Shown: piece by piece, positions 11,774 to 41,569 of the stretch
Layout: each line of letters starts with the position of its first letter
Numbering within the stretch: position 1 is the first letter of the stretch
Assembly (NCBI GenBank): GCA_947625535.1
Contig: CANQOR010000002.1
Span: 9,507-73,506, forward strand
DNA length: 64,000 nucleotides
Origin: an uncultured Bacilli bacterium
GTDB lineage: Bacteria > Bacillota_I > Bacilli_A > RF39 > UBA660
Direction: 5' to 3'
Position numbers and translations under genes: made by a program
Notes under the pieces: model-generated
What the model was told of the DNA's origin: nothing
What the model saw: only the letters and a program-made list of their open reading frames with translations
Databases searched by the model: none

Positions 11774-12523
11774 ATGATGAGAAAAAATAAGTTTATTATG
11801 TTAATTATTGTAGTGCTTTTCCTATTTGTAGGTAAAGTAAATGCAGTAGAAGAGGAGGATGTTACTTGTAATACAAGGAAGTTAACTGAATTAAGACAGA
11901 TGGCTTCTAATGTTAAGGTAACATATATTTCTGGTGAGGCGGTAAGACAACTGCCAACTCCAAATCCAGAAGTAGATGGAACGGAGGAAACAATTTATTA
12001 TTTGGACGTTAAGATATTTAACTTGAATAGTAAGTTGGGAGTAAAAGTTTCTACGAAGGGTAATAATATTACTCCAGAAACACATGATGTTGGATTAAGC
12101 GAGATGGGGCCTGATGGAGCAGTTACTTTAAGACAGATGGCTAGTAATTCAAATATCGATTATGAATTTAAAGTTTATGCGATAGAAGGTAACTGTACTG
12201 GTAAAACGTTAAGAACACTTAGACTTACAATACCAAAGTTTAATATGTATTCAGAATTAGATATATGTAAGGATGTTCCTGACTATTACTTATGTCTAAG
12301 ATATACAACTTATGATGTTGATGGAGCGACATTCTATGATAGAGTAGATGAATATAAAGCTAAAATGTTAGTTCAAAATGAAACTGAAAATAATGTTAAC
12401 AATACAGTTAGTAGAACTTTATCTAATCTATCTAAATATAAATATATAATAGTTGGAATAGTAGTTGCGGTTGGTGTTGTGATAACAGTGTTAATTCTTA
12501 GAAGAAAGAAGAGTGAAGTATAA
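11774..12523 (+). CDS. secreted protein with C-terminal membrane anchor; first gene of the Tad-like cluster
   Basis: Signal peptide (…VGKVNA), C-terminal TM helix + RRKKSEV, and an internal duplicated LRQMASN motif. Its stop overlaps the next start (TAATG at 12521-12525). Confidence 0.55.
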   Translation: MMRKNKFIMLIIVVLFLFVGKVNAVEEEDVTCNTRKLTELRQMASNVKVTYISGEAVRQLPTPNPEVDGTEETIYYLDVKIFNLNSKLGVKVSTKGNNITPETHDVGLSEMGPDGAVTLRQMASNSNIDYEFKVYAIEGNCTGKTLRTLRLTIPKFNMYSELDICKDVPDYYLCLRYTTYDVDGATFYDRVDEYKAKMLVQNETENNVNNTVSRTLSNLSKYKYIIVGIVVAVGVVITVLILRRKKSEV

Positions 12524-15500
12524 TGAATATAAGTAATTATAAAAAATATTTACTATTTATAATTTTATCATTTACGTTATTTACTGGTGTCACATTTGCT
12601 GCTAAGGAATTAGTTTTAGTTCCGCCACAATATGGCAAAACAGTAACCTATAGTAATTCAGAATATCGTAATTTACATTGCGAACCTGTAACACTAAATG
12701 TCTTTAAGGTTGAAAATACTTCTAGTGGAGTAAAAATTTCTTGGCCTTCAAGTAATAAACCTAAAGGTGCTGGTTATGATACAGTTACTTGTACATATGA
12801 TTATGAGGTATCAGTAGGTAATACTGTACCATTTACAAGTGATTATCCTTTGGCTTATTCTTCTATAGAAATGCCAACATATTTTGTATCTATTAATGAC
12901 AATGGTACAGGTGGAGGTACGAGTGTTGATTTAAAAGACGTTGTAAGTGGCGAATATAAAAGAATCGTTAAACGTGTTGATCACGAAAATGAAAGTGGCT
13001 TAAACTTTTTAAATCTTGATCAATGCCCATTTGGCAGTTATTGCGTAATTGCACCATCTGATCAATTCTATGAAATTAGTGGTAAAGAATCAGCATTAGT
13101 TTTTTTCGAAGCTGTTGATTATAGCGATAATCATGAAACAATAGCTGTTCATGTTACTCTTGTTCATCAACCTGGAGCTAGAGCATACCCTGGCGCTGGT
13201 ATATGTAGTTTTAATGGTCAATGGACAACTGATGGTGGAGCTTATACAACAAGAGAATCTGGAGCTGTTTTACCAGATTGTAAAGGCCCTTCTACTGGTG
13301 TTCAAATGGAATTCGTAGGTTGGACATATGGTTCAAGAGAAAATCCTGACTCATCAATTCCTGATGATCGTAATGTTCAATTACAACAAGCTAATACATG
13401 TGAGAGTTATCCTCATGTATCAGCAGGAGCTACAACTAATAATCAATATACTTATTTTGCTTGTTTTAAAACAAAACCTGCTGTAACTTTAAATACTACA
13501 GGTGCTGGAGCAGTTATTGATCCAGTTGGAACTTGTAAATTAACAAATGGATATTTCTATTGTGAAGGTACTGGAACAATGAAGTTACCTTCTGTTAGAT
13601 TCGAAGGTGAATTTAATCAAAAAGGTCAAAAAACTTTCTCAGCATGGGTAAGAGATGATGGCAAGAGATTCCAACCTGGAGATGAAGTTCCATATGATAA
13701 CTCTTCTTATAGTGTTGAATTTGAATTTACTACTGTAGAAAGAGAATTATATAAAACTGTTAAAGTTGGTAGAAATGAAGTTTTGGCACTTAGAGATATG
13801 GTAACTACTACAGGTTGTAAGGCTAGTAGCGAAACTTATCTTACAGCTAACCTTTCAGGTGGTGAATGTATTGTTCATGGTGTTAAAGATTCTAGCGGCG
13901 CATATACTGATGTAACAATAACTGGTACAAATAAAGATGGCGCTGTATTTGATACTACATTTAAAGTTTCTGTTGAAGATGATCCTGTATTTGGCGGAGG
14001 ATCTGGAGGTTCAGGTGGCTCTGGTGGTTCCGGAGGTTCTGGAGGCTCAGGTGGCTCTGGTGGCTCTGAAGCTGGCGTTGGTGGAGGATTCATTATTCAA
14101 GTTAATTCTGAAACAATGCCAGGTGATAATACTGTTACTGGATTAAATGAAGCTGGTGGCTTCTGCAAAAATGTAAGAATACGTTGGGTTTCTTATAATA
14201 AGAAAGACGATATTACTTCATCTGGATTAAATATGCTTAACTATGATGCTCGTTCTACTTGTGATGGTAAACGTTACTTATCATTATGTATGGATCCTGG
14301 ACGTCTTGGTCCTGACAATGGTGTTTTTATGGATTATTATGTTGTTGGCGATGGAGCTGGGGGAAAAATTAATGATCATTATAAAAAATTTATTGGTTAT
14401 ATAACTTCTAAATATTTACAAGATACTAGTGCCATTGCTGAGTTAGGTGATTTAAATTCGTTTAGTGATTTTAAAATTGCTGCACAAGTTTCATTACGTG
14501 TTATTGCAATTATGATAGGTGAAGGTGGCGGTGGAAACGCTTATCCAACTCACTATGCTCCTTACCAAACTTTTGCTGATTCTGTTAATGCATGTAATCG
14601 TAATCAATCTTGCATTAGTAGTGCTACTAGTACATTCTTTGGTTCAAATAGTGCTGGTGCACAAGGCATTGTAACCGATATTTTGACAAATTATTCTACA
14701 TATAGTGCTGATGAAGATGAAGGCAAATTTGAATACTCAATTGATGATAAAAAGGTTAATAAAATTAATGGCGATATGGGTTATGATTTAATTTATACTG
14801 GTACTTTAAAATTACCTAAAAACGCTAAATTAATTAGTCCTGCTACAGGTTCTACTGTCACTTATGATAAGGGTGGCGCTAGTGGAACATTTAAAATTAC
14901 AGGTACTGCGGATGGTGCTACTGCAGAAACTCAGGTCTTAAAATATGAAGCAACCGTACATGTTGAAAACATTTTAAATCTTACTAAGATTCCTAAATCT
15001 GATGAGGAAAAAGTTGAATATAGTTTTAAAATTGAATATGAGGGTGCAATAACACCAGCTAATATAGCGATTGCATATCCAACAAATAATAAATCTTATC
15101 AAAGAATGTTCTTATTCGATTTTGAAAACCATTATACATACTTATATTTTGATATTACACCTCCTGATTGTGATTTTGATCCGTTAGATCATAATAAACA
15201 TTGTAACGATAGTGGATGTGATAGTGGATTCAGTGTTCCAATGTTTAAAGCGGCAGGATGCTGTAGATATGTTATGGATGAAACTAGTTATGTTGGAAAG
15301 AATTTATGTTCTGCCGAATGTACTACTTCAACACTTTCTACTGTTTGTGATAAGGATTTAGTTAATCCTGGTTCTACAAAGATTTATGAAATTAAAGAAG
15401 GTGAAAAAGGTACTGGAAGTAGTGCAGAAAAGAAGATTGGTACTTGTATAGTAAAAACTGATGAACCTTATACTACTGGTAGTGAAAGTTATTCTTCTAC

Positions 15501-18378
15501 CGGTAATCCGACTTCTACTGATGATACTTCTACTGAGTATAATAGATTCCAAAAATATGATGCTAATGGTAATTCAATAATGGTTGCTGCTTATCGTAAC
15601 AATCAATATTGCCAAGTTAGTTGCCGTGAGGAATGGCAGATAACCACTGATACATTTGGTAATTTTATTGGAGAAAGAGCTGCATTGGCTGGTCAATTCT
15701 TCCAAAATAGAGAGAATAGTGTATTTATTGGTTCTAAACGTACTTGCTATTCAACTTACGTTGATTATGATAAATATACTAAGGATGTAAAAGATCTTTC
15801 TCAATCTATTGTAAATAATTATAAAACTTATAGTAATGCTTCACACGTTTATGCTGACATAGAAGATCAAACAAAATTACCTGTTAAGAGTACGGCACTT
15901 CAATTTACTTCTACATCATTATGTACGGCTGATCAAGCTTCTGTTACTGAGAATTCTTATAAATGTAAAAAAACGAATCCTTCAACTGGTAAATTAGAAG
16001 ATTCAACGTGTTATACTTATACAATTGAATGGTCATGCACTGATACAATCAATACTCAAGGTAGTTATAGCTTAAATATAAATCATAAATTTAAGGGTCA
16101 ACCATATGGAACAACAACTGGTGGTTCTGCAAACGATTCAGAAGGTAAATTTACTTACTATGATGATAAAGCTGAGCATACAAAAGGATATTGGGAAAAT
16201 TTATTTAATAAACAAATTATTGAAGATTATTCTTATAGTGGTAAAAATACTGGCACTTGTTCTGTTGTAACTCCTAGTTATGAAAGTATTACTTATTATA
16301 ATAAAAATACTAAACAAAATGTTACTGTATCTAGACAGCATAAGAAAACAAAATATGGTACAAATTGTTATAATGATTTTGATACTAATGATACGCATGG
16401 TGGATCTGGTAAAGGTGCCCAAGATGCATTTGATAAATTAAGTAAAGAAATTATGAATGACGCTAAGAGTCAAGTTGAAACTGCTGCTAATGCAATGATT
16501 ACTGCTACTAATGATATTAAAGAAAAAACAGAGGATGTTTTCCAATGTCAACACTATGAACTTAAAAATACTACTGATGATTCAAATGGTAGAAAACAAA
16601 ATACTCAAAATACTCAAAAATTATTTGGTAAAGATACTCCATTTGTTCAAATTGAGACAGCTTATGATCCAGATATTTCGTATATCTATGATGAGGCTGC
16701 ATATATGACAATTTTAGCTGATGATAATGTCATGATTCAACATCTAGGCACAAATGATGCTTACATTCAAAAGGGAATGGATGCAGAAGGAACGCTAGGA
16801 CCTGATTATAATAATACTACCAATGCTTCTGTTAAGGCTTATTTAGGACCTGATGAATACTGCTTAAATGGTGGAGATGCTTCTAAATGTCAAGAAATTA
16901 CTTTAGCTAGAAATAGATTACATTCAATTTATTATAATCCAACCACTAAGTGGGAAGTTGATAGCGATCAATCTAAGAAATATGAAGATACTGCTGGTAA
17001 GATAGATCTTCCTGGTGGTGGCAAACCTGCTAATGATAAATATTATGATGCTCATATGACACTATGCCAAGTTGGTATGGGTAGTGGAAGCTATGCTAAA
17101 AATGCTCGTACACAATTTAGTAATGATATAGTCGCATTAGCCGATGGTAATTATCATTATCGTTATGCTGGTGGACGTTGCTACGATTATACATTAAAAT
17201 TCGTTAAAGCCCATTATTTCCAATCTTCAATAGAAAATGGAAGTTTCTATAGAAATAAGGGTATTTGGTATAAGAGTGGAAATGACATTAGAGAACATGG
17301 TGAAACTTTAGATGAAGCTCTAATGGTTAATTCTCAAAAACGTAGTAATCCCCCTGATTATTCTGGATATGATCCTATGAATTGGTCTGTATTTGTTGGT
17401 ACTAAGACTGGATCAGGAGTAGTTGGTAACTATAACCTATTCCCTGTTAGTATTACTACAAAACGTAATATGTATCAATATACTTATATATTCAAAGATA
17501 TAGGTGTTTACACGAATAATGATTTGGGTCGTCTGATGGGCGATGAGAAATCTATTATTCAAGCTAATACACAGACATGTTACTATGAGGTTGTCGAGGA
17601 TGTTTGCTTATGTTGTGGCGATGACTTGTTAACATATTCAATACCTGGAATTCCGGCAGCATCTGACACTGTTGGTCCACAACTTGGTTACAACTATCAG
17701 TTCTCTTTAGGTGATGATGACATTCCTGAAAATTCAAACGGTGTTTTAGGATTTAGTAATTCAACAGTTGCATTATCTGATTTAAATTCATCTTCAGATA
17801 GAAAGTTAGGTGCTAACTGGAGTGGTAATGCTGCATTCTACTATGGTGGCATTAAACTTGAAACTAATAAAGGTGAAGTTGCTAAGGATAGAATTGAAAA
17901 ACTTGGTGAAACGGTTTACCAAAAAGATCCTGAATATTCATTTGTAATAACTCCAGAAGGAATGCAATATATTAGAAACTACAATGATCAAAATGGATAT
18001 GTAGTTAACTTTAAAAATTTAAATATTTATGGTAGAGCTTCTATTCAACCACTTGGTAGCTGCAGTATTGATAGTAATGATTGTTGGTTTGCTTCTAATT
18101 CAGATGAAGAACAAGAAATGACTGATAAGATTGCTAACTTTGGTCACTACGGAAGTAAATTCTTGGAAGATATTGGTTCTGTAGGTGGTATTACAGATAA
18201 TTCTAACAATTTAAAACTTACTGGTGATTCTTCTGTATGTGCTATTAAAGATGGGGATTCAATTACTGATGAGTTAGCTAAGAAGTGTCGTTGGATTGAC
18301 TATATTGAACAAAGTAGTAATGTTCCAACACTTTGGGGCTCTTCTGGAACACAATATTATAGATTGGCATTTAAATAG
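12523..18378 (+). CDS. giant (1951 aa) secreted Cys-rich protein; candidate pilus-associated adhesin
   Basis: Uninterrupted ORF with a Sec signal (…TGVTFA/AKE), a (GGS)n linker and many Cys residues including CC pairs. No sorting signal or TM anchor, and no family recognised. Confidence 0.8.
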   Translation: MNISNYKKYLLFIILSFTLFTGVTFAAKELVLVPPQYGKTVTYSNSEYRNLHCEPVTLNVFKVENTSSGVKISWPSSNKPKGAGYDTVTCTYDYEVSVGNTVPFTSDYPLAYSSIEMPTYFVSINDNGTGGGTSVDLKDVVSGEYKRIVKRVDHENESGLNFLNLDQCPFGSYCVIAPSDQFYEISGKESALVFFEAVDYSDNHETIAVHVTLVHQPGARAYPGAGICSFNGQWTTDGGAYTTRESGAVLPDCKGPSTGVQMEFVGWTYGSRENPDSSIPDDRNVQLQQANTCESYPHVSAGATTNNQYTYFACFKTKPAVTLNTTGAGAVIDPVGTCKLTNGYFYCEGTGTMKLPSVRFEGEFNQKGQKTFSAWVRDDGKRFQPGDEVPYDNSSYSVEFEFTTVERELYKTVKVGRNEVLALRDMVTTTGCKASSETYLTANLSGGECIVHGVKDSSGAYTDVTITGTNKDGAVFDTTFKVSVEDDPVFGGGSGGSGGSGGSGGSGGSGGSGGSEAGVGGGFIIQVNSETMPGDNTVTGLNEAGGFCKNVRIRWVSYNKKDDITSSGLNMLNYDARSTCDGKRYLSLCMDPGRLGPDNGVFMDYYVVGDGAGGKINDHYKKFIGYITSKYLQDTSAIAELGDLNSFSDFKIAAQVSLRVIAIMIGEGGGGNAYPTHYAPYQTFADSVNACNRNQSCISSATSTFFGSNSAGAQGIVTDILTNYSTYSADEDEGKFEYSIDDKKVNKINGDMGYDLIYTGTLKLPKNAKLISPATGSTVTYDKGGASGTFKITGTADGATAETQVLKYEATVHVENILNLTKIPKSDEEKVEYSFKIEYEGAITPANIAIAYPTNNKSYQRMFLFDFENHYTYLYFDITPPDCDFDPLDHNKHCNDSGCDSGFSVPMFKAAGCCRYVMDETSYVGKNLCSAECTTSTLSTVCDKDLVNPGSTKIYEIKEGEKGTGSSAEKKIGTCIVKTDEPYTTGSESYSSTGNPTSTDDTSTEYNRFQKYDANGNSIMVAAYRNNQYCQVSCREEWQITTDTFGNFIGERAALAGQFFQNRENSVFIGSKRTCYSTYVDYDKYTKDVKDLSQSIVNNYKTYSNASHVYADIEDQTKLPVKSTALQFTSTSLCTADQASVTENSYKCKKTNPSTGKLEDSTCYTYTIEWSCTDTINTQGSYSLNINHKFKGQPYGTTTGGSANDSEGKFTYYDDKAEHTKGYWENLFNKQIIEDYSYSGKNTGTCSVVTPSYESITYYNKNTKQNVTVSRQHKKTKYGTNCYNDFDTNDTHGGSGKGAQDAFDKLSKEIMNDAKSQVETAANAMITATNDIKEKTEDVFQCQHYELKNTTDDSNGRKQNTQNTQKLFGKDTPFVQIETAYDPDISYIYDEAAYMTILADDNVMIQHLGTNDAYIQKGMDAEGTLGPDYNNTTNASVKAYLGPDEYCLNGGDASKCQEITLARNRLHSIYYNPTTKWEVDSDQSKKYEDTAGKIDLPGGGKPANDKYYDAHMTLCQVGMGSGSYAKNARTQFSNDIVALADGNYHYRYAGGRCYDYTLKFVKAHYFQSSIENGSFYRNKGIWYKSGNDIREHGETLDEALMVNSQKRSNPPDYSGYDPMNWSVFVGTKTGSGVVGNYNLFPVSITTKRNMYQYTYIFKDIGVYTNNDLGRLMGDEKSIIQANTQTCYYEVVEDVCLCCGDDLLTYSIPGIPAASDTVGPQLGYNYQFSLGDDDIPENSNGVLGFSNSTVALSDLNSSSDRKLGANWSGNAAFYYGGIKLETNKGEVAKDRIEKLGETVYQKDPEYSFVITPEGMQYIRNYNDQNGYVVNFKNLNIYGRASIQPLGSCSIDSNDCWFASNSDEEQEMTDKIANFGHYGSKFLEDIGSVGGITDNSNNLKLTGDSSVCAIKDGDSITDELAKKCRWIDYIEQSSNVPTLWGSSGTQYYRLAFK
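13993..14067 (+). repeat. tandem 9-nt coding repeat encoding GGGSGGSGGSGGSGGSGGSGGSGGS
   Basis: ggc gga gga tct gga ggt tca ggt ggc tct ... About eight GGS units with shuffled synonymous codons. Confidence 0.9.
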
Positions 18379-27239: not shown

Positions 27240-27249
27240 GTGATAAAGA

Positions 27250-29362: not shown

Positions 29363-29389
29363 TAATTGAATTTTATATTTAAAATAAAG

Positions 29390-29417: not shown

Positions 29418-29450
29418 ATGATATAATTTCAATGATATGAGGTGTTTTCT

Positions 29451-35538: not shown

Positions 35539-38007
35539 ATGGCACAAGATTCTGATAAAAAAATAAAAGTAGGATTAGAAATTCCTATTGAAGATGAAGA
35601 TGAGTTTAGAGAAGAAGATAAAAGGTTAGATAAAGCACAAGAAGATGCTAAAAGAGTAGCTGATGCTCCTAAACAAACGCCATCTTTAGAACGAGATACT
35701 TCAACAGGTTATAATCCTAATAGATATCAAAATACTGGAACTGAACCTGCTCGTAGAACAAGTTCTTTAAATAGAGATAATGAATTAAGTAGAAAGCCAG
35801 CTAGTGGTGATGCTTCTAAACCAGCTCTACCAACTAAGCAAACGCCAGCAGAAGCTAAACCACAGGATAGGAAGGAAACAGCTCCTGATGTTGGTAAAGA
35901 TTATGGTGAAGGGACTCCTCCTAGTTATCCTAAATATGGAGAGATGCCTAGTCAAGGAACACAAGAATCACCAGTAGGGGAACAATCACCTATGGTTGCA
36001 TCACCTAAATATAATCCTGAAGATTTTGAATCTGGACATGGTGGTTTAGAGAAAAAAGATGAAGATAAATTAGATGCACCAGATGAAAAAGAAAAAGAAC
36101 CAAAAGAAGAACCAAAGGGAGAAGACGGAGAAAGAAAAACAGCAGGTGATGAAGTTGAACAAAATCCGATGGCTTCTAAAAAAGTTAATCCTCAAGATGA
36201 AGTAGCCAAAGAAGCTCCTTCAGAAACTTCTCCTGGTAATGGATATGGAGCTTTAAAAAATAGAAGTAAGAGTAATCCAGAACAAACACAAGATACAGAG
36301 AATGCACGTAAAAATTTAAGATTTTCACAACGTGTTTCACAAAATCAAGCTCAAGAAAATGGAACTAATCCAGCTGGAAGAAGTTCTTCGGGAAGTATAA
36401 ATGAACCAGCTCAAGAATCTCTTGGTTCAAGATTAAGAAATAGATTAAGTGGTATTTTTAATGGTAATACACAAAGAGATGTTTCAAATGGACATGGTCG
36501 TAATAGTGGGGATGGAAATAATCCATTTAATGCGGCTTTTAGTCAATTAAAAAAGTCAATAATAGAGTTTTTAAAAACACATCCTCATGTAGCAGTTATT
36601 ATTGCAGCGATTATTTTATTAGTTTTAATACTATTTATTTGGTTAGTAAATGAAACATATAATAATAATGGGCATGGAGCAGGAGCTCGTTGTACTTATT
36701 CATTAAGTGGTGTTTTATCAACAGGAACTGTTAATTTAGAGGGACTTCAAGTAGAAGTAGTTAATTGTGATGCTAGTGCTAATAATTATACAGTATTAGA
36801 AACTGTTGATTTTGAAAAGTATGTTGTTGGGGTTGCTTTAGCTGAAACTGGTTATTCAGATTCTACTGTTGAAGCATTTAAAACACAAATTGTAGCAGCT
36901 AGAGGATTTGCTTTAACACGTAATAGTTCAATGTGTCCAAGTAATCCAGATGATTGTTTTTATGGATATAATCCTAATACAGGTAAGATAAGACTTAGAG
37001 CTTGTACGAATGATCAAGTTTATTGTGATTATGATAGAGATTGTTATCGTATGACTAGAGGATCTAGCCCAGCTTTATTTAGTCCAGAAATAGATGAAAA
37101 TACATCAGGAGCTTATGTATGGAAAGGTCAACTAAGTGAAGAGTTAAAAGCTAAAGTATTAGCAGCTGCTGATGAAGTAAAAGGAAAAGTTTTATTAGAT
37201 GAATCAGGTAATGTTGCTCATACTAATTATGTTAATACGGATCAACAACATTGGGTTGAACTAGCTAATCAAGGAAAGACATATGATGAAATATTAATTG
37301 AACACTATGGCGGTGGCAATGTATCTGGAGCAACTTGTACAAGTGGTGTTATTGATTATGGTGATTATGTATTATCATCAGAAGGACATACAATATTACA
37401 TGAACCTTTAGATGGTTTCTTAGAAAAAAATGGAACTAGTTTAGAAGCATTTAATGGTTTAATAGCGGAAAACGTTGATAAAGCTGGATATGGAACAAGA
37501 GCTGGTGTAGTTGCAGCAGCAGTTACATTAATAGCTGAACTTGGTAATAATTATGGTGTTAAAGTACCTTACTATTGGGGTGGTGGACACTATGATGGTG
37601 TTGTAGATGGAGCACTAGGTTATTGGGGAAGTACACAATGTCATACTTATGCTAATAATCAATCATATGATTATTGTGGTTTCGATTGTTCAGGATTCGT
37701 TCCTTGGGCGATTAAAAATGGTGGATTTAATATTTCCCAAATGTTAGCTGGTAATTTCCAAAATCTACCTGGAGTAAGAAGAGTTAATTTATCAAATAGT
37801 GCTGTTTTACAACCTGGAGATTTACTAGAATCTAGTGGTCATATAGTATTAGTTGTTGGTATAGAAGAATCTTCTGGTAATTATATATGTGCTGAAGCAA
37901 GTGGAAATGCAGCAGGAGTATTATTTACACGTCGACCATTCAATAGTAGCGGTTACTGGGGAGTTGAAATGGATGGTTTCTATGAAACTCATCAAAGGAG
38001 CAAGTAA
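35539..38007 (+). CDS. T4SS-associated cell-wall hydrolase: disordered N-terminal region + TM + SpoIID-like domain + NlpC/P60 endopeptidase domain
   Basis: SpoIID-like signature EKYVVGVALAETGYSDSTVEAFKTQIVAARGFALTRN. NlpC/P60 region YYWGGGHYDG...GFDCSGFVPWA (Cys) ...SGHIVLVVG (His). One TM helix near aa 350. Confidence 0.8.
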   Translation: MAQDSDKKIKVGLEIPIEDEDEFREEDKRLDKAQEDAKRVADAPKQTPSLERDTSTGYNPNRYQNTGTEPARRTSSLNRDNELSRKPASGDASKPALPTKQTPAEAKPQDRKETAPDVGKDYGEGTPPSYPKYGEMPSQGTQESPVGEQSPMVASPKYNPEDFESGHGGLEKKDEDKLDAPDEKEKEPKEEPKGEDGERKTAGDEVEQNPMASKKVNPQDEVAKEAPSETSPGNGYGALKNRSKSNPEQTQDTENARKNLRFSQRVSQNQAQENGTNPAGRSSSGSINEPAQESLGSRLRNRLSGIFNGNTQRDVSNGHGRNSGDGNNPFNAAFSQLKKSIIEFLKTHPHVAVIIAAIILLVLILFIWLVNETYNNNGHGAGARCTYSLSGVLSTGTVNLEGLQVEVVNCDASANNYTVLETVDFEKYVVGVALAETGYSDSTVEAFKTQIVAARGFALTRNSSMCPSNPDDCFYGYNPNTGKIRLRACTNDQVYCDYDRDCYRMTRGSSPALFSPEIDENTSGAYVWKGQLSEELKAKVLAAADEVKGKVLLDESGNVAHTNYVNTDQQHWVELANQGKTYDEILIEHYGGGNVSGATCTSGVIDYGDYVLSSEGHTILHEPLDGFLEKNGTSLEAFNGLIAENVDKAGYGTRAGVVAAAVTLIAELGNNYGVKVPYYWGGGHYDGVVDGALGYWGSTQCHTYANNQSYDYCGFDCSGFVPWAIKNGGFNISQMLAGNFQNLPGVRRVNLSNSAVLQPGDLLESSGHIVLVVGIEESSGNYICAEASGNAAGVLFTRRPFNSSGYWGVEMDGFYETHQRSK

Positions 38008-38009
38008 TT

Positions 38010-38762
38010 ATGAAAAAAAGATTGATATTATTAATTAGTTTTCTATTTTTGTTATGTGGTTGTACAGCTAATGTTAATATAGAAGTTAAAGAAAATGGAA
38101 TAAATGAAGAAGTTTTAATAACAGATACTTTTACTGATGCAACAATTAAAGAACAAGTTAAGAATCGTTATATAGAATTTGTTCCGGCTTTTGCTGAAGA
38201 TGTAATAGTAGATACAATGCCAGAAAAAATGCCTGGTGTTAAGTATTATGATCGAGAAATTAGTGAAATTAATAATGGATATAATGTAAAATATGAATAT
38301 TTCTTTGGAACTGCTAATTATTTAAAAGCAAGAACTGTTAAGAATGGTTTTAAATCTTCTGCTTTACAAAAAGATACTAAAGAAGAAACATTAACATTAT
38401 CTACTGATAGTGGAGGTTTATTATACTTTAAAGATTATCCTGAGTTAGCTCAAGTAAGAGTTAATATTACTTCTGTGTATAAAGTATTAGAAAGTAATGC
38501 TGATAGTGTAAATGGTAATGTTTATAGTTGGGTATTTACACCAACTACTAAGAAAAGTATTTATATATTGTATGATACTAAGAAAGAAGATACTGTAGGT
38601 GATCCAGAAAAGGAAGATACTAAAGAAGAAAATGAATCTTCTAAAAATGAGAAGACAGGTATTGAAAAATTTATGAATGATCATCCAATATTAATTGCAT
38701 CTTGTTTACTTGTATTATTTTTGATTTTTGTTATAATATCAACTAAGATTTTTAAGAAATAA
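38010..38762 (+). CDS. lipoprotein with C-terminal TM helix (T4SS accessory, function unknown)
   Basis: Lipobox-like FLLCGC after a signal peptide, and a C-terminal hydrophobic helix + KIFKK. 2-nt gap after the hydrolase gene. Confidence 0.5.
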   Translation: MKKRLILLISFLFLLCGCTANVNIEVKENGINEEVLITDTFTDATIKEQVKNRYIEFVPAFAEDVIVDTMPEKMPGVKYYDREISEINNGYNVKYEYFFGTANYLKARTVKNGFKSSALQKDTKEETLTLSTDSGGLLYFKDYPELAQVRVNITSVYKVLESNADSVNGNVYSWVFTPTTKKSIYILYDTKKEDTVGDPEKEDTKEENESSKNEKTGIEKFMNDHPILIASCLLVLFLIFVIISTKIFKK

Positions 38763-38836
38763 ATAAAAGGAATTACTCCTTTTATTTTTGACTTGTTATG
38801 TAGTATAATATTAATAGATTTGGGGTGTATAGTCTC

Positions 38837-41545
38837 ATGAAATTTCGTATTTCTAGTAAAGATTTAGTAATGTTTATTGTTTTTGCTTGTTTTTTACTTT
38901 ATTTATGTGCAATAGCAACAACAAATATTAGTTATTTTGGTTCAACTGGTTCATTTTATGGATTGAATCCAATCCCAGGTTTTACCGAATATTTAGGAGC
39001 AACAGTAGTATTGTTTCTAATTTTGGTTGTTTTAATTTTTACCAGTGTATCTTCTTTAGTTTTTGAAAGAAAAGATGGTATTGGTTTTGAAATAGGGGAA
39101 AAAGATAATAAAGGTTATTCTAGATGGTCAAAAGATCGTGAAATAAAAAATGATAAAGGAGTAGAAATAGTTGATCCTTTATCACAAGAGACTACAGTAG
39201 CTGGTATTCCTTTAGTTAATGATGGAAAAAGATTATGGGTTGATAATGGTGAATATCATAACTTAGTAATAGGTTCAACTGGTTCAGGTAAATCTCAAAC
39301 AATAGTTGAACCTATGGTTGAATTATTAATTAAAAAAGGCGAAAGTATGATTATTACTGACCCTAAAGGTGAATTATATAAAGCATCAAGTGATTATATG
39401 CGTCAAAGAGGATATAACGTTGTTATTCTTAACTTCCGTGAACCACAAAATGGTAATGCTTGGAACCCTCTTACTTTACCTTACCAATATTATAAAGATG
39501 GAAATGTAGATAAAGCTACAGAATTATTGGATGACGTTGCTTTAAATATTTTGTATGATCCTAATAATAAGGGTGAACCTTTCTGGGAAAAGTCAGCTGC
39601 TGACTACTTCTCAGGTTTAGCATTAGGATTATTTGAAGATGCTAAAATTGAAGAAATAAATCTTAACTCTATTAATTTAATGAGTACAGTTGGTGAAGAA
39701 AAGTTTGCTGCTAGTAATTATATTAAAGAGTATTTTACTTTAAAAGGTGAAGATTCAAATGCTTATGTATTTGCTTCTAATACAATTAATGCTCCTTCAG
39801 ATACTAAAGGTGGTATTTTATCTGTATTTAGACAAAAGATAAGATTATTTGCTTCACGTGATAATTTATCAGAGATGCTTGCTTATAGTGATTTTGATAT
39901 GCGTAATATCGGAAAAGAAAAAACAGCAGTATTTATAGTTATTCATGATGAAAAAACAACATATCATGGATTAGCAACAATTTTTATTAAACAAGTTTAT
40001 GAAACGTTAATTGATGTTGCTCAAGCTAATGGTGGTAAATTACCATATCGTACTAATTTTATCTTAGATGAGTTCGCTAATATGCCACCTCTTAAAGATG
40101 TTACAACAATGGTTACAGCAGCACGTTCTCGTGCCATTAGATTTACATTTATTATTCAAAACTTTGCTCAATTAAAAAGTGTTTATGGTAATGAAGATGC
40201 TGAAACAATTAAGGGTAACTGTGGTAATTTAGTTTACTTAATTAGTACAGAATTAGCAGCCTTAGAAGAAATTAGTAAAATGTGTGGAGAAGTAAAATCA
40301 AGTGATAAAGATAAAACAGCTTCTACACCATTAGTTACAGTTACTGATTTACAAAAATTAAAATTATTTGAAGCTATTATTATTAGATGGCGTTTAGCTC
40401 CATTTAAGACAAAATATACACCAAACTTTAAAATGGATTGGGGACATCCAAAATCTGAGGCAGTGTATCCAACGAGAGAGAAAAAACCAGTACAGAAGTT
40501 TGATGTAAAAGAATTTACTAAGAAGAAAAAGAGTGAAAAAATTAAAAATTCTTTAAATGAAAGTACTAATTCTATGCCAAGTAATGGTAATCCTTTTAGA
40601 AGCCCTGGTGATAATCCATTTGGAGCTGGTCCATTTGGTGGTGCTAGTCCATTTGCTAATCCAGAATCTAAGGGTGATAATGGATTATTTGGTGGCTTAG
40701 GTGGTGGATTAGATCTTGATGCGATGATGAGAGATATCGACAGAAAAATTGCTGAATTAGATGCTGAAGAAGCTCGTCAGAAAGAGGAACAATCTAAATT
40801 AAAAGCTAGTGAAAAAGATAAAGAAGATAATCAATTACCAATGCCTAGTATTGATGATGATATAAATAATCAAATTGAGGATATGATAATTGGTCAAGAA
40901 GAGAGTAAAATAAAAGATGTTACTCCTGAAGAGATTAGCGAACCTAAAATAGAACCTAGTAAACCAGTTGTTGATTCATTTAATATCTTTAATTCTAAAT
41001 CAACTAATAATGAAGAAAACATAGATTTATTAAGGGATGAAAAGAATAATGAAGTTACTATAGGTAATGAAAAAGCAAGTATTGCTGTAGCTACTAGTAG
41101 TCCTTTAGAAGATGTTGATACTTATGAAACTCTACCAAAAGTAGAAAATGCTTCAATAATCCAACCTAGTTATAATAGTGGTACAGTAGTTAAAACAAAT
41201 AGTGAAGATTATAATATTTATAATAGTGTTCCTAATATAATGGATACTGTAAAAGATGATGTTAAATCTGAAGAAACTATAAAAGAAGAACTTAAAGAAT
41301 TTAAAAAACCAGTAACAACATATAGTGTAGAACCTAAAGTAAAAGAAGAACCAAAAACTAATGAATATAATATCTTTAATACACCAGTTACTAAAGAAGA
41401 TGAAGTAACAGAAAATATTAAAAAGATGGAAAATACAGTAGAAGAAAAAGCTAATGTAAATATTGATCCTGATAAAGTAGTAATTAAAGATAATAATGTT
41501 ATTACAGATGATGAATTCTTTGATGACTTTTTTGGCGATGACTAA
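38837..41545 (+). CDS. virD4: VirD4/TraG-type type IV coupling protein with a roughly 350-aa acidic low-complexity C-terminal tail
   Basis: Start set at ATG 38837 after GGGGTG. Two N-terminal TM helices, Walker A GSTGSGKSQT, Walker B FILDEFANMP. Confidence 0.85.
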   Translation: MKFRISSKDLVMFIVFACFLLYLCAIATTNISYFGSTGSFYGLNPIPGFTEYLGATVVLFLILVVLIFTSVSSLVFERKDGIGFEIGEKDNKGYSRWSKDREIKNDKGVEIVDPLSQETTVAGIPLVNDGKRLWVDNGEYHNLVIGSTGSGKSQTIVEPMVELLIKKGESMIITDPKGELYKASSDYMRQRGYNVVILNFREPQNGNAWNPLTLPYQYYKDGNVDKATELLDDVALNILYDPNNKGEPFWEKSAADYFSGLALGLFEDAKIEEINLNSINLMSTVGEEKFAASNYIKEYFTLKGEDSNAYVFASNTINAPSDTKGGILSVFRQKIRLFASRDNLSEMLAYSDFDMRNIGKEKTAVFIVIHDEKTTYHGLATIFIKQVYETLIDVAQANGGKLPYRTNFILDEFANMPPLKDVTTMVTAARSRAIRFTFIIQNFAQLKSVYGNEDAETIKGNCGNLVYLISTELAALEEISKMCGEVKSSDKDKTASTPLVTVTDLQKLKLFEAIIIRWRLAPFKTKYTPNFKMDWGHPKSEAVYPTREKKPVQKFDVKEFTKKKKSEKIKNSLNESTNSMPSNGNPFRSPGDNPFGAGPFGGASPFANPESKGDNGLFGGLGGGLDLDAMMRDIDRKIAELDAEEARQKEEQSKLKASEKDKEDNQLPMPSIDDDINNQIEDMIIGQEESKIKDVTPEEISEPKIEPSKPVVDSFNIFNSKSTNNEENIDLLRDEKNNEVTIGNEKASIAVATSSPLEDVDTYETLPKVENASIIQPSYNSGTVVKTNSEDYNIYNSVPNIMDTVKDDVKSEETIKEELKEFKKPVTTYSVEPKVKEEPKTNEYNIFNTPVTKEDEVTENIKKMENTVEEKANVNIDPDKVVIKDNNVITDDEFFDDFFGDD

Positions 41546-41569
41546 TTAATTAAGTCATCTCTTTTTTTT
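41537..41569 (+). terminator. intrinsic terminator closing the accessory locus
   Basis: Stem gatgact (41537-41543) / agtcatc (41553-41559), followed by TCTTTTTTTT. It overlaps the stop codon. Confidence 0.55.

What the first reader, a model, noticed from the sequence alone, without database searches (positions are those of the whole stretch)
11774..41569. About 30 kb chromosomal locus joining a Tad-like pilus module to a Gram-positive type IV secretion system
**Layout.** All genes from 11774 to 41545 are on one strand with tiny or overlapping junctions. They fall into a few promoter/terminator-delimited blocks.

**Block 1 (11774-22944).** Secreted anchor protein, 1951-aa giant protein, pilin-like protein, CpaB-like, CpaF/TadA ATPase, TadB, TadC.

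**Block 2 (23021-26086).** FAD-oxidoreductase::membrane fusion gene.

**Block 3 (26172-28977).** Two small pilins, two larger pilin-like proteins, and a TadZ-like protein.

**Block 4 (29045-41545).** VirB2-like x2, VirB6-like, VirB3-like, split VirB4, SpoIID+NlpC/P60 hydrolase, lipoprotein, and VirD4.

**Context.** Tad pili and Gram-positive T4SSs are each well known. A single contiguous locus holding a complete set of both, embedded between housekeeping and sporulation genes, is not an arrangement I recognise as described.

**Possible analogies (inference only).**
- The thin type IVb pilus that assists IncI plasmid mating.
- The Myxococcus Kil Tad-like apparatus used for contact-dependent killing.
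- A DNA-uptake role, as with the Helicobacter ComB T4SS.
Basis: partly seen in the sequence, partly recalled or inferred. Interest (0 to 1): 0.9.

Follow-up and report, generated by a model that had tools for sequence, protein, structure and literature searches.

The report
Chromosomal conjugation-type machine with Tad-like pilus module
An uncultured, spore-forming gut bacterium carries in its chromosome a DNA/protein-transfer machine of the plasmid-conjugation type joined to a thin-pilus assembly kit; the same combination sits on Bacillus conjugative plasmids such as pXO2, but here it has no relaxase nearby, and its pilus-assembly ATPase is found in hundreds of related uncultured species, so it looks like a domesticated cell-contact organelle.

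Summary
Most family calls hold: VirD4, a split VirB4, T4SS_pilin, a SpoIID/NlpC-P60 hydrolase, a T2SSE ATPase, CpaB-like and one T2SSF-like platform protein. TadB-like, TadZ-like and VirB6-like are weakly supported. The pilins are a family-specific type, not Flp.

The pairing is not chance. The same two modules lie together, in similar order, on relaxase-bearing Bacillus plasmids (pBMB68, pXO2; pAW63 in the literature). They also recur in permuted, compact and dispersed layouts in related chromosomes. So the arrangement is not undescribed: pAW63's "VirB11" dates from 2005. Its Tad-like nature is overlooked, though, and a 2025 review still says Gram-positive T4SSs lack VirB11.

Three things look new:
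- It is chromosomal and was inherited vertically (Mantel r 0.81–0.92 with flank genes).
- No relaxase or integrase was detected in the 64-kb window, and no MobP-type relaxase in 135 related chromosomal loci.
- The ATPase occurs in at least 580 species-level genomes of uncultured gut Bacilli.

Core genes are far more conserved than their neighbours, and surface proteins are hypervariable. Block 2 is variable glycosylation cargo, not core.

Best reading: a domesticated contact-dependent transfer apparatus, a T4SS assisted by a Tad-like filament. Substrate unknown.

The parts
11213..11665 (-). Membrane-anchored thioredoxin (PedC-like, with a weak TraF hit). Probably an accessory oxidoreductase for the Cys-rich secreted components.
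   Evidence: Pfam Thioredoxin 34 bits. It is divergently adjacent to the system in type A loci and also in the distant compact loci L090/L091. It is absent where the g249-giant-DUF5411 sub-block is absent. The role is inferred.
11774..12523 (+). 249-aa secreted protein with a signal peptide and a C-terminal TM anchor (g249).
   Evidence: No Pfam hit. It is conserved immediately upstream of the giant protein in 41 loci, 22-51% identical to the window protein by tblastn.
12523..18378 (+). 1951-aa Cys-rich, Gly/Ser/Thr-rich secreted giant protein. Candidate adhesin or filament-associated surface protein.
   Evidence: No Pfam hit. It is hypervariable (26-43% identity; length 936-2289 aa) but positionally conserved. 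The positional analogs are the 1416-aa surface protein of pAW63 and the 851-aa protein of pBMB68. The role is inferred.
18395..18907 (+). DUF5411 protein with an MKESYWGYW leader and a TM helix. A pseudopilin-like component.
   Evidence: PF17424, 171 bits. Homologs lie at the same position on pBMB68 (annotated DUF5411; HMM E 1e-7) and on pXO2 (E 2e-5). DUF5411 has been reported next to CpaF and PilC-like genes in gut Clostridia (PMC9523054).
18932..19729 (+). CpaB/RcpC-like bitopic protein.
   Evidence: hhalign against canonical CpaB: probability 95.7%, E 1e-8. The pBMB68 homolog hits SAF and RcpC. The L004 homolog has a weak RcpC hit.
19757..21244 (+). Secretion-superfamily hexameric ATPase (the VirB11/CpaF/FlaI branch) with a variable Pro/Ala/Thr-rich tail.
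   Evidence: PF00437. Its best NCBIfam hits are VirB11, conjugal-transfer-associated TadA and TrbB, all below their cut-offs. PDB scores: CpaF 59, VirB11 57, FlaI 57 bits. It is 74-95% identical in the best 80 of at least 580 species genomes.
21260..22153 (+). TadB-like polytopic membrane protein (putative platform subunit).
   Evidence: No Pfam or PDB sequence hit. hhalign against T2SSF gives E 0.15, and against its neighbour TadC-like E 0.013. The AF2 model is all-helical with pLDDT 59. It matches the 316-aa protein of pBMB68 at E 1e-12. The assignment is inconclusive.
22156..22944 (+). TadC-like T2SSF-family platform protein.
   Evidence: hhalign against canonical TadB/TadC: probability 80.5%, E 1.3e-5 over 143 columns; controls gave E of 0.28 or higher. 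It matches the 297-aa protein of pBMB68 at E 5e-9.
23021..26086 (+). Block 2: an FAD-dependent oxidoreductase (PRK07208 type) fused to a ~500-aa polytopic membrane domain. Variable cargo, probably a surface or pilin glycosylation enzyme; not a core part.
   Evidence: NCBIfam NF005546, 793 bits. Its GC is 0.24-0.26, like the host. It is absent from most relatives. The same junction holds YfhO (GT-C-type) and GT2 genes in L007, L012 and L075, and comparable ~790/~835-aa ORFs in L014 that were not scanned. The role is inferred.
26172..26712 (+). Two small pilins (89 and 81 aa) with an invariant MKEATGELN leader, a hydrophobic helix and a 4-Cys C-terminal part.
   Evidence: The N-terminus is conserved across about 30 loci. 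No Pfam hit, and no Flp or T4P motif. Processing has not been shown.
26721..27861 (+). Two pseudopilin-like proteins (172 and 203 aa) with related leaders (MKEAIGGTW and MKNGIVNVW).
   Evidence: Conserved in about 30 loci. The pil172 family weakly matches the DUF4320 protein of pBMB68 (E 0.0075) and a 120-aa protein of pXO2 (E 3e-5). There is no similarity to TadE.
27880..28977 (+). TadZ-like protein: a receiver-like N-domain plus a degenerate ParA/MinD-like domain.
   Evidence: No Pfam hit. hhalign against TadZ gives E 0.014. It matches the AAA_31 protein of pBMB68 at E 2e-4. It is strongly conserved, down to the compact loci L090/L091 (E 1e-98), where it sits between the ATPase and T4SS_pilin.
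29045..29846 (+). Two VirB2-like T4SS_pilin paralogs (105 and 134 aa).
   Evidence: PF18895: 32.4 bits (passes) and 18.4 bits (below the cut-off). B2a follows TadZ-like in most layouts that include it, even where VirB4 is not adjacent.
29859..32759 (+). Extended VirB6-like polytopic protein with an Ala/Glu/Gln-rich coiled-coil C-terminal half.
   Evidence: Weak NCBIfam hit to the Mbov_0396 ICE TM protein (20 bits). Its position matches TrbL on pBMB68 and the 953-aa pLS20_p028-family protein on pXO2. Membership is weak.
32783..35461 (+). VirB3-like protein (32783-33124), VirB4 N-domain ORF (33075-33677) and VirB4 ATPase ORF (33677-35461). A genuine three-ORF split.
   Evidence: NCBIfam VirB4_plasma positions 98-276 (E 1e-13) and 294-889 (E 7e-105). 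The split is conserved in relatives and on pBMB68 as 227-aa and 632-aa ORFs.
35539..38007 (+). Cell-wall hydrolase: a disordered N-part, a TM helix, a SpoIID domain and an NlpC/P60 domain (VirB1 analog).
   Evidence: PF08486, 35 bits; PF00877, 18 bits. The homolog in L058 has NlpC/P60 at 40 bits, L092 has NlpC_P60, and L094 has SpoIID plus M23.
38010..38762 (+). 250-aa lipoprotein (lipobox LLCGC) with a C-terminal TM helix.
   Evidence: Sequence features. No family hit. Positional counterparts of 257-264 aa lie between the hydrolase and VirD4 in L058 and L092. A VirB8-like role was not tested.
38825..41545 (+). VirD4 coupling protein with a ~400-aa acidic, disordered C-terminal extension.
   Evidence: PF02534, 187 bits; TraG-D_C; NCBIfam CD1115 family 295 bits, above the 250 cut-off. 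It is 62% identical to the VirD4 of L058.
41595..41843 (+). 82-aa single-domain rhodanese. A possible accessory gene.
   Evidence: PF00581, 28 bits. It follows VirD4 in the window, L092/L093 and L094/L095, which have different downstream genes, and it precedes B2a in L057. The role is unknown.

Best explanation
The locus encodes one contact-dependent envelope-spanning transfer apparatus of the Firmicutes conjugation type. It is fixed in the chromosome of an uncultured, spore-forming, very low-GC gut member of the Bacilli.

It has three functional layers.

1. A monoderm T4SS channel and motor:
- VirB3-like protein;
- VirB4 made from an N-domain ORF plus an ATPase ORF;
- an extended VirB6-like protein;
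- VirB2-like T4SS_pilins;
- a SpoIID+NlpC/P60 wall hydrolase and a lipoprotein;
- a VirD4 coupling protein that selects the exported substrate.

2. A type-IV-filament (Tad-like) assembly module:
- a VirB11/CpaF-branch hexameric ATPase;
- two platform-type polytopic proteins;
- a CpaB-like protein and a TadZ-like positioning protein;
- two small Cys-containing pilins with an invariant MKEATGELN leader;
- three pseudopilin-like proteins.
This module builds a thin filament through the wall.

3. Hypervariable surface proteins (g249 and the 1951-aa giant) act as adhesins. A membrane thioredoxin probably forms their disulfides. Swappable glycosylation genes (block 2 in this window) probably decorate them.

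The filament and adhesins make and stabilise cell contact, and the T4SS then moves the substrate, as the type IV thin pilus does for IncI plasmid mating.

Shown:
- gene content;
- homology to plasmid tra regions;
- linkage of the two modules in several independent layouts;
- vertical inheritance;
- strong constraint on the core genes;
- no relaxase or integrase detected in the window, and no MobP-type relaxase in the related loci.

Inferred:
- that a filament is made;
- that the pilins are processed;
- the adhesin role;
- the direction of transfer (export) and the substrate. The substrate could be DNA handled by a relaxase encoded elsewhere or of an unrecognised type, or protein effectors.
For: The same two modules lie together on plasmids.
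- pBMB68 carries a MobP3 relaxase and counterparts of each component. Family HMM E-values: VirD4 1e-79, VirB4-C 9e-44, VirB4-N 7e-22, PrgI/VirB3 1e-5, CpaB 7e-39, ATPase 3e-37, TadB-like 1e-12, TadC-like 5e-9, DUF5411 1e-7, TadZ-like 2e-4.
- pXO2 has a similar family content and order.
- The pAW63 tra region is described in PMC1196294.

Linkage recurs in independent chromosomal layouts.
- Contiguous: 24 of 62 informative species loci.
- Permuted: B2a upstream of the Tad-like genes and hydrolase-lipoprotein-VirD4 downstream, in L058.
- Compact: Trx | ATPase, TadZ-like, T4SS_pilin, a ~395-aa protein, VirB6, VirB3, VirB4, in L090/L091.
- Dispersed: the VirD4 block of the L052 species keeps the same rhodanese-RmuC junction.

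Inheritance is vertical. Mantel r is 0.81-0.92 (p <= 0.001) between the Tad-like genes, VirB4-N and the flank genes in 9 species.

The core genes are strongly constrained. Mean pairwise identity is 0.74-0.84 for the core against 0.39-0.48 for the flank genes, and the surface proteins are only 26-51% identical to the window's.

The ATPase is widespread. At least 580 species genomes and more than 7600 protein clusters hold a relative.

No mobility genes were detected.
- No relaxase, integrase or Rep among the ORFs scanned in the 64-kb window.
- No MobP-type relaxase in 2.17 Mb of 135 chromosomal loci.

The Tad-like nature of the module is supported by hhalign for CpaB (96%), T2SSF (80%) and CpaF (99.7%), with clean negative controls.
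Against: - No filament, transfer or expression data exist.
- TadB-like, TadZ-like and VirB6-like are weakly supported.
- No prepilin peptidase is in the locus, and the pilin leader matches no characterised class-III signal.
- In 31 of 62 informative species loci the Tad-like core is followed directly by housekeeping genes. In several metagenome loci the Tad-like set ends at B2a with no VirB4 or VirB6 nearby. The two modules are therefore separable, and some lineages may have only one of them. Genome-wide co-occurrence could be checked for only one species.
- Relaxase families other than MobP were not searched by profile across all the loci.
- The Mantel test rests on only 9 species.
Confidence: 0.68

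Rival explanations
1. Two independent systems, an adhesive Tad-like pilus and a separate T4SS, happen to be neighbours in this genome and do not work together.
For: The modules are separable at the locus level. In 31 of 62 species loci the Tad-like core is followed by housekeeping genes. In the L121-L132 loci a complete Tad-like set ends at B2a and is followed by UvrA, Lgt and TrxB-like genes. In the L052 species VirD4 lies elsewhere in the genome.
Against: The same pairing occurs on distantly related conjugative plasmids at about 30% identity. It also occurs in permuted and compact chromosomal layouts, where the ATPase and TadZ-like protein sit directly inside the T4SS operon. T4SS_pilin follows TadZ-like in most layouts. 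Divergence of the two halves is tightly correlated.
Confidence: 0.12
2. An active or recently immobilised integrative conjugative element whose relaxase, oriT and integrase lie outside the window or belong to unrecognised families.
For: Every identifiable relative outside this lineage is a conjugation system. VirD4 passes the cut-off of a conjugal-transfer family. The locus GC (0.28-0.37) exceeds that of the flanks (0.22-0.25).
Against: The same chromosomal neighbours occur across species: Metallophos-Rce1(-Trx) on the left and rhodanese-RmuC on the right. Divergence tracks the flank genes. There is no integrase, Rep or relaxase among the ORFs scanned in 64 kb, and no MobP homolog in 135 loci. 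In some genomes the components are dispersed over several chromosomal sites. The higher GC is at least partly compositional, because these proteins are rich in Ala, Gly, Pro and Thr.
Confidence: 0.07
3. A DNA-uptake (competence) machine, analogous to Helicobacter ComB or the archaeal Ced/Ted systems, with the Tad-like filament capturing DNA.
For: The system is chromosomal and appears relaxase-less, and it has VirB2-, VirB3-, VirB4- and VirB6-like parts. RmuC, and in L092 RecG and a TfoX_N gene, lie downstream of VirD4. Type-IV-filament systems commonly mediate DNA uptake (established knowledge).
Against: ComB-type import systems lack the VirD4 export receptor (PMC12857230). VirD4 is present here and is conserved at 62% across lineages. 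A canonical ComGC-type pilin (KGFTLVE motif) exists elsewhere in a related genome, so a standard competence pseudopilus is probably available (L052:18697-19110). The downstream recombination genes are ordinary chromosomal neighbours.
Confidence: 0.08
4. A decaying remnant of an old conjugative element with no present function.
For: VirB4 is spread over three ORFs. No relaxase was found. Some related loci lack parts of the system.
Against: The three-ORF VirB4 is conserved in relatives and on a plasmid. All genes are intact. The core proteins are 74-95% identical across species whose flank proteins are 40-60% identical. One truly degraded copy (L136, fragmented ORFs) shows what decay looks like.
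Confidence: 0.03

Closest known systems
tra regions of Bacillus cereus-group conjugative plasmids (pAW63 / pXO2 / pBT9727 family; pBMB68)
   Same: They share the same component families in similar order: a large surface protein, DUF5411, (CpaB/SAF), (a TadZ-like AAA protein), a T2SSE 'VirB11' ATPase, two ~250-316-aa membrane proteins, small pilin-like proteins, VirB2, an extended VirB6-like protein, VirB3/PrgI, a separate VirB4 N-domain ORF, VirB4, a wall hydrolase and a CD1115-family VirD4 (PMC1196294).
   Different: The plasmids carry a MobP2 or MobP3 relaxase and replication genes, and pAW63 transfers itself. The window locus is chromosomal and vertically inherited, and no relaxase was found nearby. 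Identity to the plasmid proteins is only about 19-30%. The giant protein, g249 and the MKEATGELN pilins have no detectable plasmid homologs.
IncI (R64) conjugation: a Dot/Icm-like T4SS plus a type IVb thin pilus; also PAPI-1 (T4P plus VirB4/VirD4)
   Same: A type-IV-filament machine and a T4SS are encoded together and cooperate in mating. The filament makes contact and the T4SS transfers (PMC12857230). This is the best functional analogy.
   Different: Those are Gram-negative systems with canonical T4P parts (PilQ/PilR/PilS/PilV and a prepilin peptidase) on mobile elements. Here the cell is a monoderm, the parts are Tad-like or VirB11-like, the pilin leader is non-canonical, and the system is a chromosomal fixture.
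Chromosomal MPF_FATA-type T4SS of Patescibacteria
   Same: It is a monoderm conjugation-type T4SS with VirB2-like pilins. It is chromosomal and broadly conserved in a reduced-genome uncultured lineage, it mostly lacks a relaxase, and it is inferred to be co-opted for a non-conjugative role (PMC12102498). In one species both the T4SS and the T4P are essential for epibiotic growth (PMC12857230).
   Different: It is in a different phylum. T4P and T4SS are separate loci there, and no VirB11/CpaF-branch ATPase, CpaB or TadZ-like genes are reported inside the T4SS cluster. Essentiality and lifestyle are unknown for the present lineage.
Mycoplasma ICE conjugation genes (Mbov_0397 VirB4, Mbov_0396 TM protein)
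   Same: This is the best-scoring curated family for the VirB4 (352 bits, against 169 for CD1110) and the only hit for the VirB6-like protein. The host lineages belong to the same Bacilli radiation, judging from the record titles.
   Different: The scores are below the family cut-offs (590 and 70). Mycoplasma ICEs are mobile (DDE transposase) and are not known to carry a T2SSE ATPase or a Tad-like module (own knowledge, not tested here).
Canonical Tad/Flp pilus (Aggregatibacter, Caulobacter Cpa)
   Same: Both have a CpaF-branch ATPase, a pair of platform proteins, CpaB, a ParA/MinD-like TadZ analog, and small pilins plus larger pseudopilin-like proteins with related leaders.
   Different: There is no Flp motif (G/XXXXEY), no TadV/CpaA peptidase in the locus and no TadE similarity. 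The ATPase is no closer to CpaF than to VirB11 or FlaI. The module is embedded in a T4SS.

Membership tests
Tad/Flp type IVc pilus system | CpaF/TadA-family assembly ATPase | tested here: inconclusive
   The T2SSE domain is present (PF00437, 91 bits). PDB scores are CpaF 59, VirB11 57 and FlaI 57 bits. All NCBIfam scores are far below their cut-offs, and the best hit is VirB11. hhalign against two CpaF sequences gives 99.7%, but that shows superfamily membership only.
Tad/Flp type IVc pilus system | Two T2SSF-family platform proteins (TadB, TadC) | tested here: inconclusive
   TadC-like against canonical TadB/TadC: probability 80.5%, E 1.3e-5. TadB-like: E 0.15. Neither has a Pfam T2SSF hit. 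The AF2 model has pLDDT 59 and Foldseek found nothing.
Tad/Flp type IVc pilus system | Flp-type pilin with a G/XXXXEY processing motif | tested here: not met
   The small pilins start with MKEATGELN(M)TV, invariant across about 30 loci. There is no EY motif and no Flp Pfam hit.
Tad/Flp type IVc pilus system | Dedicated prepilin peptidase (TadV/CpaA, A24 family) | tested here: not met
   None is in the locus or in any related locus examined. Presence elsewhere in the genome cannot be tested here.
Tad/Flp type IVc pilus system | CpaB/RcpC and TadZ accessory proteins | tested here: met
   CpaB-like against CpaB: probability 95.7%, E 1e-8. The plasmid homolog hits SAF and RcpC. TadZ-like support is weak: hhalign E 0.014, and the plasmid homolog hits AAA_31 at 29 bits.
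Gram-positive (monoderm, MPF_FATA-like) type IV secretion system | VirB4-family ATPase | tested here: met
   P-loop_TraG 59 bits and AAA_10 50 bits. NCBIfam VirB4_plasma E 7e-105, below the equivalog cut-off.
Gram-positive (monoderm, MPF_FATA-like) type IV secretion system | VirD4-type coupling protein | tested here: met
   T4SS-DNA_transf 187 bits. NCBIfam CD1115 family 295 bits, above the 250 cut-off.
Gram-positive (monoderm, MPF_FATA-like) type IV secretion system | VirB6-like polytopic channel protein and a VirB3/PrgI-like protein | tested here: inconclusive
   VirB6-like: only Mbov_0396 at 20 bits. VirB3-like: the family HMM matches the annotated PrgI of pBMB68 at E 1e-5. The topology and position fit.
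Gram-positive (monoderm, MPF_FATA-like) type IV secretion system | Peptidoglycan hydrolase (VirB1 analog) | tested here: met
   SpoIID 35 bits (passes). NlpC/P60 is 18 bits in the window and 40 bits in the L058 homolog.
Gram-positive (monoderm, MPF_FATA-like) type IV secretion system | VirB8-like (NTF2-fold) wall-spanning subunit | not tested
   No profile hit. The 250-aa lipoprotein is a candidate by position only. No MSA permitted by the tools was available for a reliable model.
Self-transmissible conjugative element (ICE or plasmid) | Relaxase (and oriT) linked to the T4SS | tested here: not met
   No relaxase family appears among the locus ORFs or the flank ORFs scanned in the window. No MobP2 or MobP3 homolog occurs in 135 chromosomal loci. 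None appears in the precomputed Pfam lists of L001, L004 or L090-L095. Other MOB families were not profile-searched in all loci, and oriT was not searched.
Self-transmissible conjugative element (ICE or plasmid) | Integrase/excisionase or a replication module, with variable insertion sites | tested here: not met
   None was found in the scanned ORFs of the 64-kb window. The flanks are conserved across species, and divergence correlates with the flank genes.

The most novel reading that the evidence does not exclude
A hybrid T4SS/type-IV-filament machine descended from the Firmicutes conjugation apparatus has become a core, vertically inherited organelle of a large radiation of uncultured, small-genome gut Bacilli. 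It is no longer used to move a mobile element. Instead it serves an obligate cell-to-cell interaction with partner bacteria, kin or host cells, such as delivery or exchange of proteins or chromosomal DNA. This would parallel the essential T4SS and T4P of epibiotic Saccharibacteria. The hypervariable adhesins and swappable glycosylation cassettes would set partner specificity.
Probability: 0.3. Interest if true: 0.8.

Novelty: new variant of a known kind. Interest (0 to 1): 0.62.

Why it matters
**1. It corrects the field's summary.** A 2025 review states that Gram-positive T4SSs universally lack VirB11 homologs and lists no Gram-positive T4SS/type-IV-filament hybrid. Yet a whole family of Firmicutes systems, on plasmids and in chromosomes, carries a VirB11/CpaF-branch ATPase. 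It comes with platform-like, CpaB-like and TadZ-like proteins and pilins next to VirB4 and VirD4. Recognising this module gives a concrete candidate for how thick-walled donors reach and hold recipients.

**2. It points to a prominent conserved structure in a barely known group.** The chromosomal version appears to lack a relaxase. Its ATPase is present in at least 580 species-level genomes of gut and rumen Bacilli, and its core genes are among the most conserved in their neighbourhood. It would be an obvious target for understanding how these organisms live, and possibly for cultivating or manipulating them.

**3. It offers a natural series for dissecting the machine.** The layouts found here (contiguous, permuted, compact and dispersed) show which parts of the two machines stay linked and which can be separated.

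Tried and rejected
- **PDB sequence profiles.** Profiles of the TadB-like, TadZ-like and CpaB-like families against PDB sequences gave no hits.
- **Structure of TadB-like.** It was repeated with permitted homologs, but the MSA was shallow (64-93% identity) and the model had pLDDT 59. Foldseek against PDB returned nothing meaningful. The second structure job was not used, because no permitted MSA existed for the remaining unknowns.
- **pBMB68 platform counterparts.** Pfam on these proteins, tried as a transitive route to T2SSF, gave no hit.
- **H41 as a Tad reference.** It proved to be a VirB11 inside a Gram-negative T4SS, mis-named TadA, so it was dropped in favour of two genuine Cpa/Tad loci.
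- **Pseudopilins and TadE.** DUF5411, pil172 and pil203 show no similarity to TadE.
- **Pseudogene reading of VirB4.** Rejected, because the three-ORF layout is conserved in relatives and on pBMB68.
- **Block 2 as a core component.** Rejected: it is absent in most relatives and replaced by YfhO/GT2 genes in others.
- **Promoter- and terminator-delimited blocks.** Promoter-like hits are not above the shuffle expectation.
- **Matching longest-contig lengths across hit lists.** This was meant to test genome-level co-occurrence. It worked for only one species (the L052 contig of 1,256,952 bp).
- **SpoIIIA 'feeding-tube' relationship.** Considered because of the T2SSE ATPase and the SpoIID domain in a spore-former, and rejected: no SpoIIIA family appears among the NCBIfam hits, and VirB4, VirD4 and T4SS_pilin are present.
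- **Literature searches.** Searches for RF39/RFN20 with secretion or pili, and for DUF5411, found no description of this system.

Full report
**1. What is in the window.** The flanks have about 22-25% GC and the locus 28-37%, except block 2 at about 25%. From 11774 to 41545 there are 24 ORFs, all on the + strand with short or overlapping junctions.

Curated profiles support these genes:
- a T2SSE ATPase (19757);
- DUF5411 (18395);
- T4SS_pilin (29045 passes; 29442 is below the cut-off);
- the VirB4 ATPase (33677);
- SpoIID, with a sub-threshold NlpC/P60 (35539);
- VirD4 (38825), which passes the NCBIfam CD1115-family cut-off.

VirB4 is spread over three ORFs in frames 2, 0 and 2: a VirB3-like TM protein, an N-domain ORF matching VirB4_plasma positions 98-276, and the ATPase matching positions 294-889. 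The flanks hold housekeeping and sporulation genes: HisRS, a class-I aaRS, CotZ, a dacB-spmA/B-like trio, YunB, BacA, RmuC and DedA. A tRNA cluster lies at 56.7-58.6 kb. None of the ORFs I scanned in the 64 kb is a relaxase, integrase or replication protein.

**2. How good the Tad labels are.** The ATPase scores equally against CpaF, VirB11 and FlaI structures (57-59 bits). Its best NCBIfam hits are VirB11, conjugal-transfer-associated TadA and TrbB, all far below their cut-offs. It belongs to that branch of the superfamily, but not demonstrably to CpaF.

Sequence profiles of the TadB-like, TadZ-like and CpaB-like families find nothing in PDB. The AF2 model of TadB-like was poor (pLDDT 59) and Foldseek was uninformative.

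I then ran profile-profile comparison against two genuine Tad loci fetched from plasmids. Cross-family controls all gave E of 0.095 or higher.

| Family | Reference | Result |
|---|---|---|
| CpaB-like | CpaB | probability 96%, E 1e-8 |
| TadC-like | T2SSF | probability 80%, E 1.3e-5, 143 columns |
| TadB-like | T2SSF | E 0.15 |
| TadZ-like | TadZ | E 0.014 |
| DUF5411, pil172, pil203 | TadE | nothing |

The two small pilins share an almost invariant MKEATGELN(M)TV N-terminus followed by a hydrophobic helix and a part with 4-6 Cys. The three larger proteins (DUF5411, pil172, pil203) have related MKEAxxG-type leaders. This looks like a family-specific class-III-like signal, but it is neither the Flp nor the T4P motif, and no A24 peptidase is nearby. 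Independent literature places DUF5411 next to CpaF and PilC-like genes in gut Clostridia (PMC9523054). 'Tad-like type-IV-filament module' is therefore a fair description. 'A Tad pilus' is not established.

**3. Distribution.** The ATPase has more than 7600 hits among 90%-identity clusters, and the top 120 are 91-95% identical. At least 580 species-representative genomes encode a relative. The best 80 (74-95% identity) are uncultured gut, rumen or caecal MAGs. Their titles name Bacilli, Tenericutes, Candidatus Coprovivens, Mycoplasma sp. CAG:956, Firmicutes CAG:582 or Erysipelotrichaceae. At 50% clustering the family is a tight clade, followed by a gap down to 47% identity or less. I infer, from the record titles only, that the host belongs to the RF39/RFN20/ML615J-28 radiation of Bacilli. 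That radiation is reported to include sporulating, walled members (PMC10868615).

**4. Gene order in relatives.** I labelled all ORFs of 84 related loci with iteratively built family HMMs and 30 metagenome loci with the same models. Several layouts exist.

- **A, as in the window (24 loci reach T4SS genes, 4 more reach TadZ-like).** Metallophos(-), Rce1(-), Trx(-) | g249, giant, DUF5411, CpaB, ATPase, TadB, TadC, pilins, TadZ, B2a, B2b, B6, B3, B4N, B4C.
- **B (31 of 62 informative loci).** The Tad-like core is followed at once by housekeeping genes such as Suf or thioredoxin reductase.
- **D (3 loci).** ftsA, ftsZ, B2a, g249, giant, DUF5411, CpaB x2, ATPase, TadB, TadC. In L058 this is followed directly by the hydrolase, a 264-aa protein and VirD4 (62% identical to the window's).
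- **Compact, in distant relatives (ATPase 40-47% identical; L090/L091).** Trx(-) | ATPase, TadZ-like (E 1e-98), T4SS_pilin, a ~395-aa protein, VirB6, VirB3, VirB4-N, VirB4-C. No CpaB, TadB/C-like genes or pilins lie in between.
- **Mini-blocks.** [pilins, TadZ, B2a], or [giant ... TadZ, B2a, B2a], stand alone between core genes.
- **Dispersed.** In the species of L052, the block [hydrolase, 257-aa protein, VirD4] lies between dnaJ and rhodanese-RmuC, the same right-hand junction as in the window, and is not next to the Tad-like block.

The three-ORF VirB4 is conserved throughout, so it is not a pseudogene.

**5. Block 2 is cargo.** The FAD-oxidoreductase::membrane gene is present only in the window, L005, L012 and L062. 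In L007, L012 and L075 the same TadC|pilin junction holds YfhO-family genes (E down to 1e-145) and a GT2 gene. L014 has comparable unscanned ORFs there, and L021 has a second giant gene. From my own knowledge, YfhO proteins are GT-C-type extracytoplasmic glycosyltransferases. Given the host-like GC of block 2 as well, I read this junction as a hot-spot for surface or pilin glycosylation genes. That is an inference.

**6. The decisive comparison.** The nearest plasmid VirB4 (29% identity) is on B. thuringiensis pBMB68. Its annotated neighbourhood holds:
- a MobP3 relaxase, VirD4 (CD1115 family), TrbL, PrgI, a 227-aa ORF, VirB4 and NlpC/P60;
- then an 851-aa protein, DUF5411, a SAF protein, an AAA ATPase, a T2SS/T4P/T4SS ATPase, 316-aa and 297-aa hypotheticals, and small proteins including DUF4320.

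My family HMMs match these proteins one by one, with E-values from 1e-79 to 2e-4. B. anthracis pXO2 has a similar family content and order, plus a MobP2 relaxase. The 2005 description of conjugative pAW63 lists VirB11 (444 aa) flanked by a 1416-aa surface protein, 278-aa and 250-aa conserved hypotheticals and small CDSs, together with VirB4 and VirD4 (PMC1196294).

The composite is therefore the normal tra architecture of a known plasmid family, so the arrangement itself is not new. Its filament-like nature does seem unrecognised. The B. cereus conjugation review never mentions Tad or a pilus (PMC9673590). [quoted passage not shown]

**7. Chromosomal, vertical, constrained.** No MobP2 or MobP3 homolog occurs in 2.17 Mb of 135 chromosomal loci, and the positive control worked. 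No relaxase family appears in the precomputed Pfam lists of L001, L004 or L090-L095. Across nine non-redundant species, pairwise identities of the ATPase, TadB, TadC, TadZ, VirB4-N and the flank genes are strongly correlated (Mantel r 0.81-0.92, p <= 0.001). Both halves share one history with the chromosome.

Mean pairwise identity:

| Gene | Identity |
|---|---|
| ATPase | 0.84 |
| TadB-like | 0.77 |
| TadC-like | 0.74 |
| VirB4-N | 0.74 |
| Metallophos (flank) | 0.48 |
| Rce1-like (flank) | 0.39 |

The giant protein, g249, VirB6 and the pilins are only 22-81% identical to the window's versions. Constrained motors with fast-evolving exposed parts are what I would expect of a working surface machine under diversifying selection. 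That is an inference.

**8. Mechanism (best reading, confidence about 0.68).** This is one contact-dependent apparatus. A Tad-like filament, the adhesins, the Trx-assisted disulfides and the variable glycosylation make and hold contact. The monoderm T4SS, with VirD4 as substrate receptor, exports the substrate. VirD4 argues for export and against ComB-like uptake.

The substrate is unknown. Because no relaxase was found and the system is lineage-wide, the closest conceptual precedent is the chromosomal, mostly relaxase-less T4SS of Patescibacteria (PMC12102498). The closest functional analogy is the IncI thin pilus. The separability of the modules in about half of the species loci keeps a 'two cooperating or independent machines' reading alive. 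I could test genome-level co-occurrence for only one species.

**9. Verdict.** The linkage is real and the locus is chromosomal, but the arrangement already exists on known plasmids. I rate it a new variant of a known kind, of moderate to high interest. Most of that interest lies in the overlooked VirB11/Tad-like module of Gram-positive T4SSs and in its apparent domestication in a large uncultured gut lineage.

Noticed in passing
window 41595-41843; L092:12370-12639; L094:12579-12833; L057:2016-2285: A small single-domain rhodanese gene stays next to VirD4 in three layouts with different downstream genes, and precedes the T4SS_pilin gene in a fourth. It may be an accessory component and not a flank gene. 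Its role is unknown.
   Followed up: partly
window 11213-11665 (-); L090:2703-3119; L091:4086-4499: A membrane-anchored thioredoxin (PedC-like, with a weak TraF hit) is divergently adjacent to the system, even in the distant compact loci. It is missing where the Cys-rich g249/giant/DUF5411 sub-block is missing.
   Followed up: partly
window 9535-11201 (-): A metallophosphoesterase and an Rce1-like CPBP intramembrane protease are conserved immediately upstream of the Tad-like core in about 50 loci of several layout types, including loci where only the pilins and TadZ-like follow (L113-L119). I did not test whether the protease processes the MKEATG-leader proteins.
   Followed up: no
window 23021-26086; L007:13305-18253; L075:13289-16731; L012:13872-19318: The junction between the TadC-like gene and the pilins is a hot-spot for swappable surface-glycosylation genes: an FAD enzyme fused to or followed by a membrane domain, YfhO-family genes, and GT2. 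The FAD and membrane parts are separate ORFs in L012 and L062 but fused in the window.
   Followed up: partly
window 53661-55037: A 458-aa ORF with a long Pro/Val/Ala/Thr-rich low-complexity core explains a local GC peak (0.35) in otherwise 23% GC DNA. It has no Pfam match. The ATPase tail (window 20900-21244) has a similar composition.
   Followed up: no
L052:18697-19110: A canonical ComGC-type competence pilin (MKNKGFTLVEVIAV...) occurs in a related genome, so these bacteria probably also have a standard competence pseudopilus.
   Followed up: no
L136 (whole locus): One metagenome copy of the system is fragmented into many short ORFs across all the Tad-like genes. It is either a truly decayed copy or a low-quality assembly, and it contrasts with the intact copies elsewhere.
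   Followed up: no
L086:19902-22530 (pXO2): The VirD4 homolog of B. anthracis pXO2 is split into 611-aa and 283-aa ORFs, and the large surface protein is split as well (909 + 497 aa). This fits the reported inability of pXO2 to transfer itself.
   Followed up: no
L052:13164-15437: In one permuted locus the gene after the TadC-like gene encodes a DUF285 (Mycoplasma-type) plus leucine-rich-repeat surface protein. This is another example of variable surface cargo beside the system.
   Followed up: no
window 35469-35492: A clean terminator-like hairpin (10-bp stem followed by a T-run) lies between VirB4 and the hydrolase gene. It suggests the hydrolase-lipoprotein-VirD4 sub-block is a separate transcription unit, which matches its independent location in other genomes.
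   Followed up: partly
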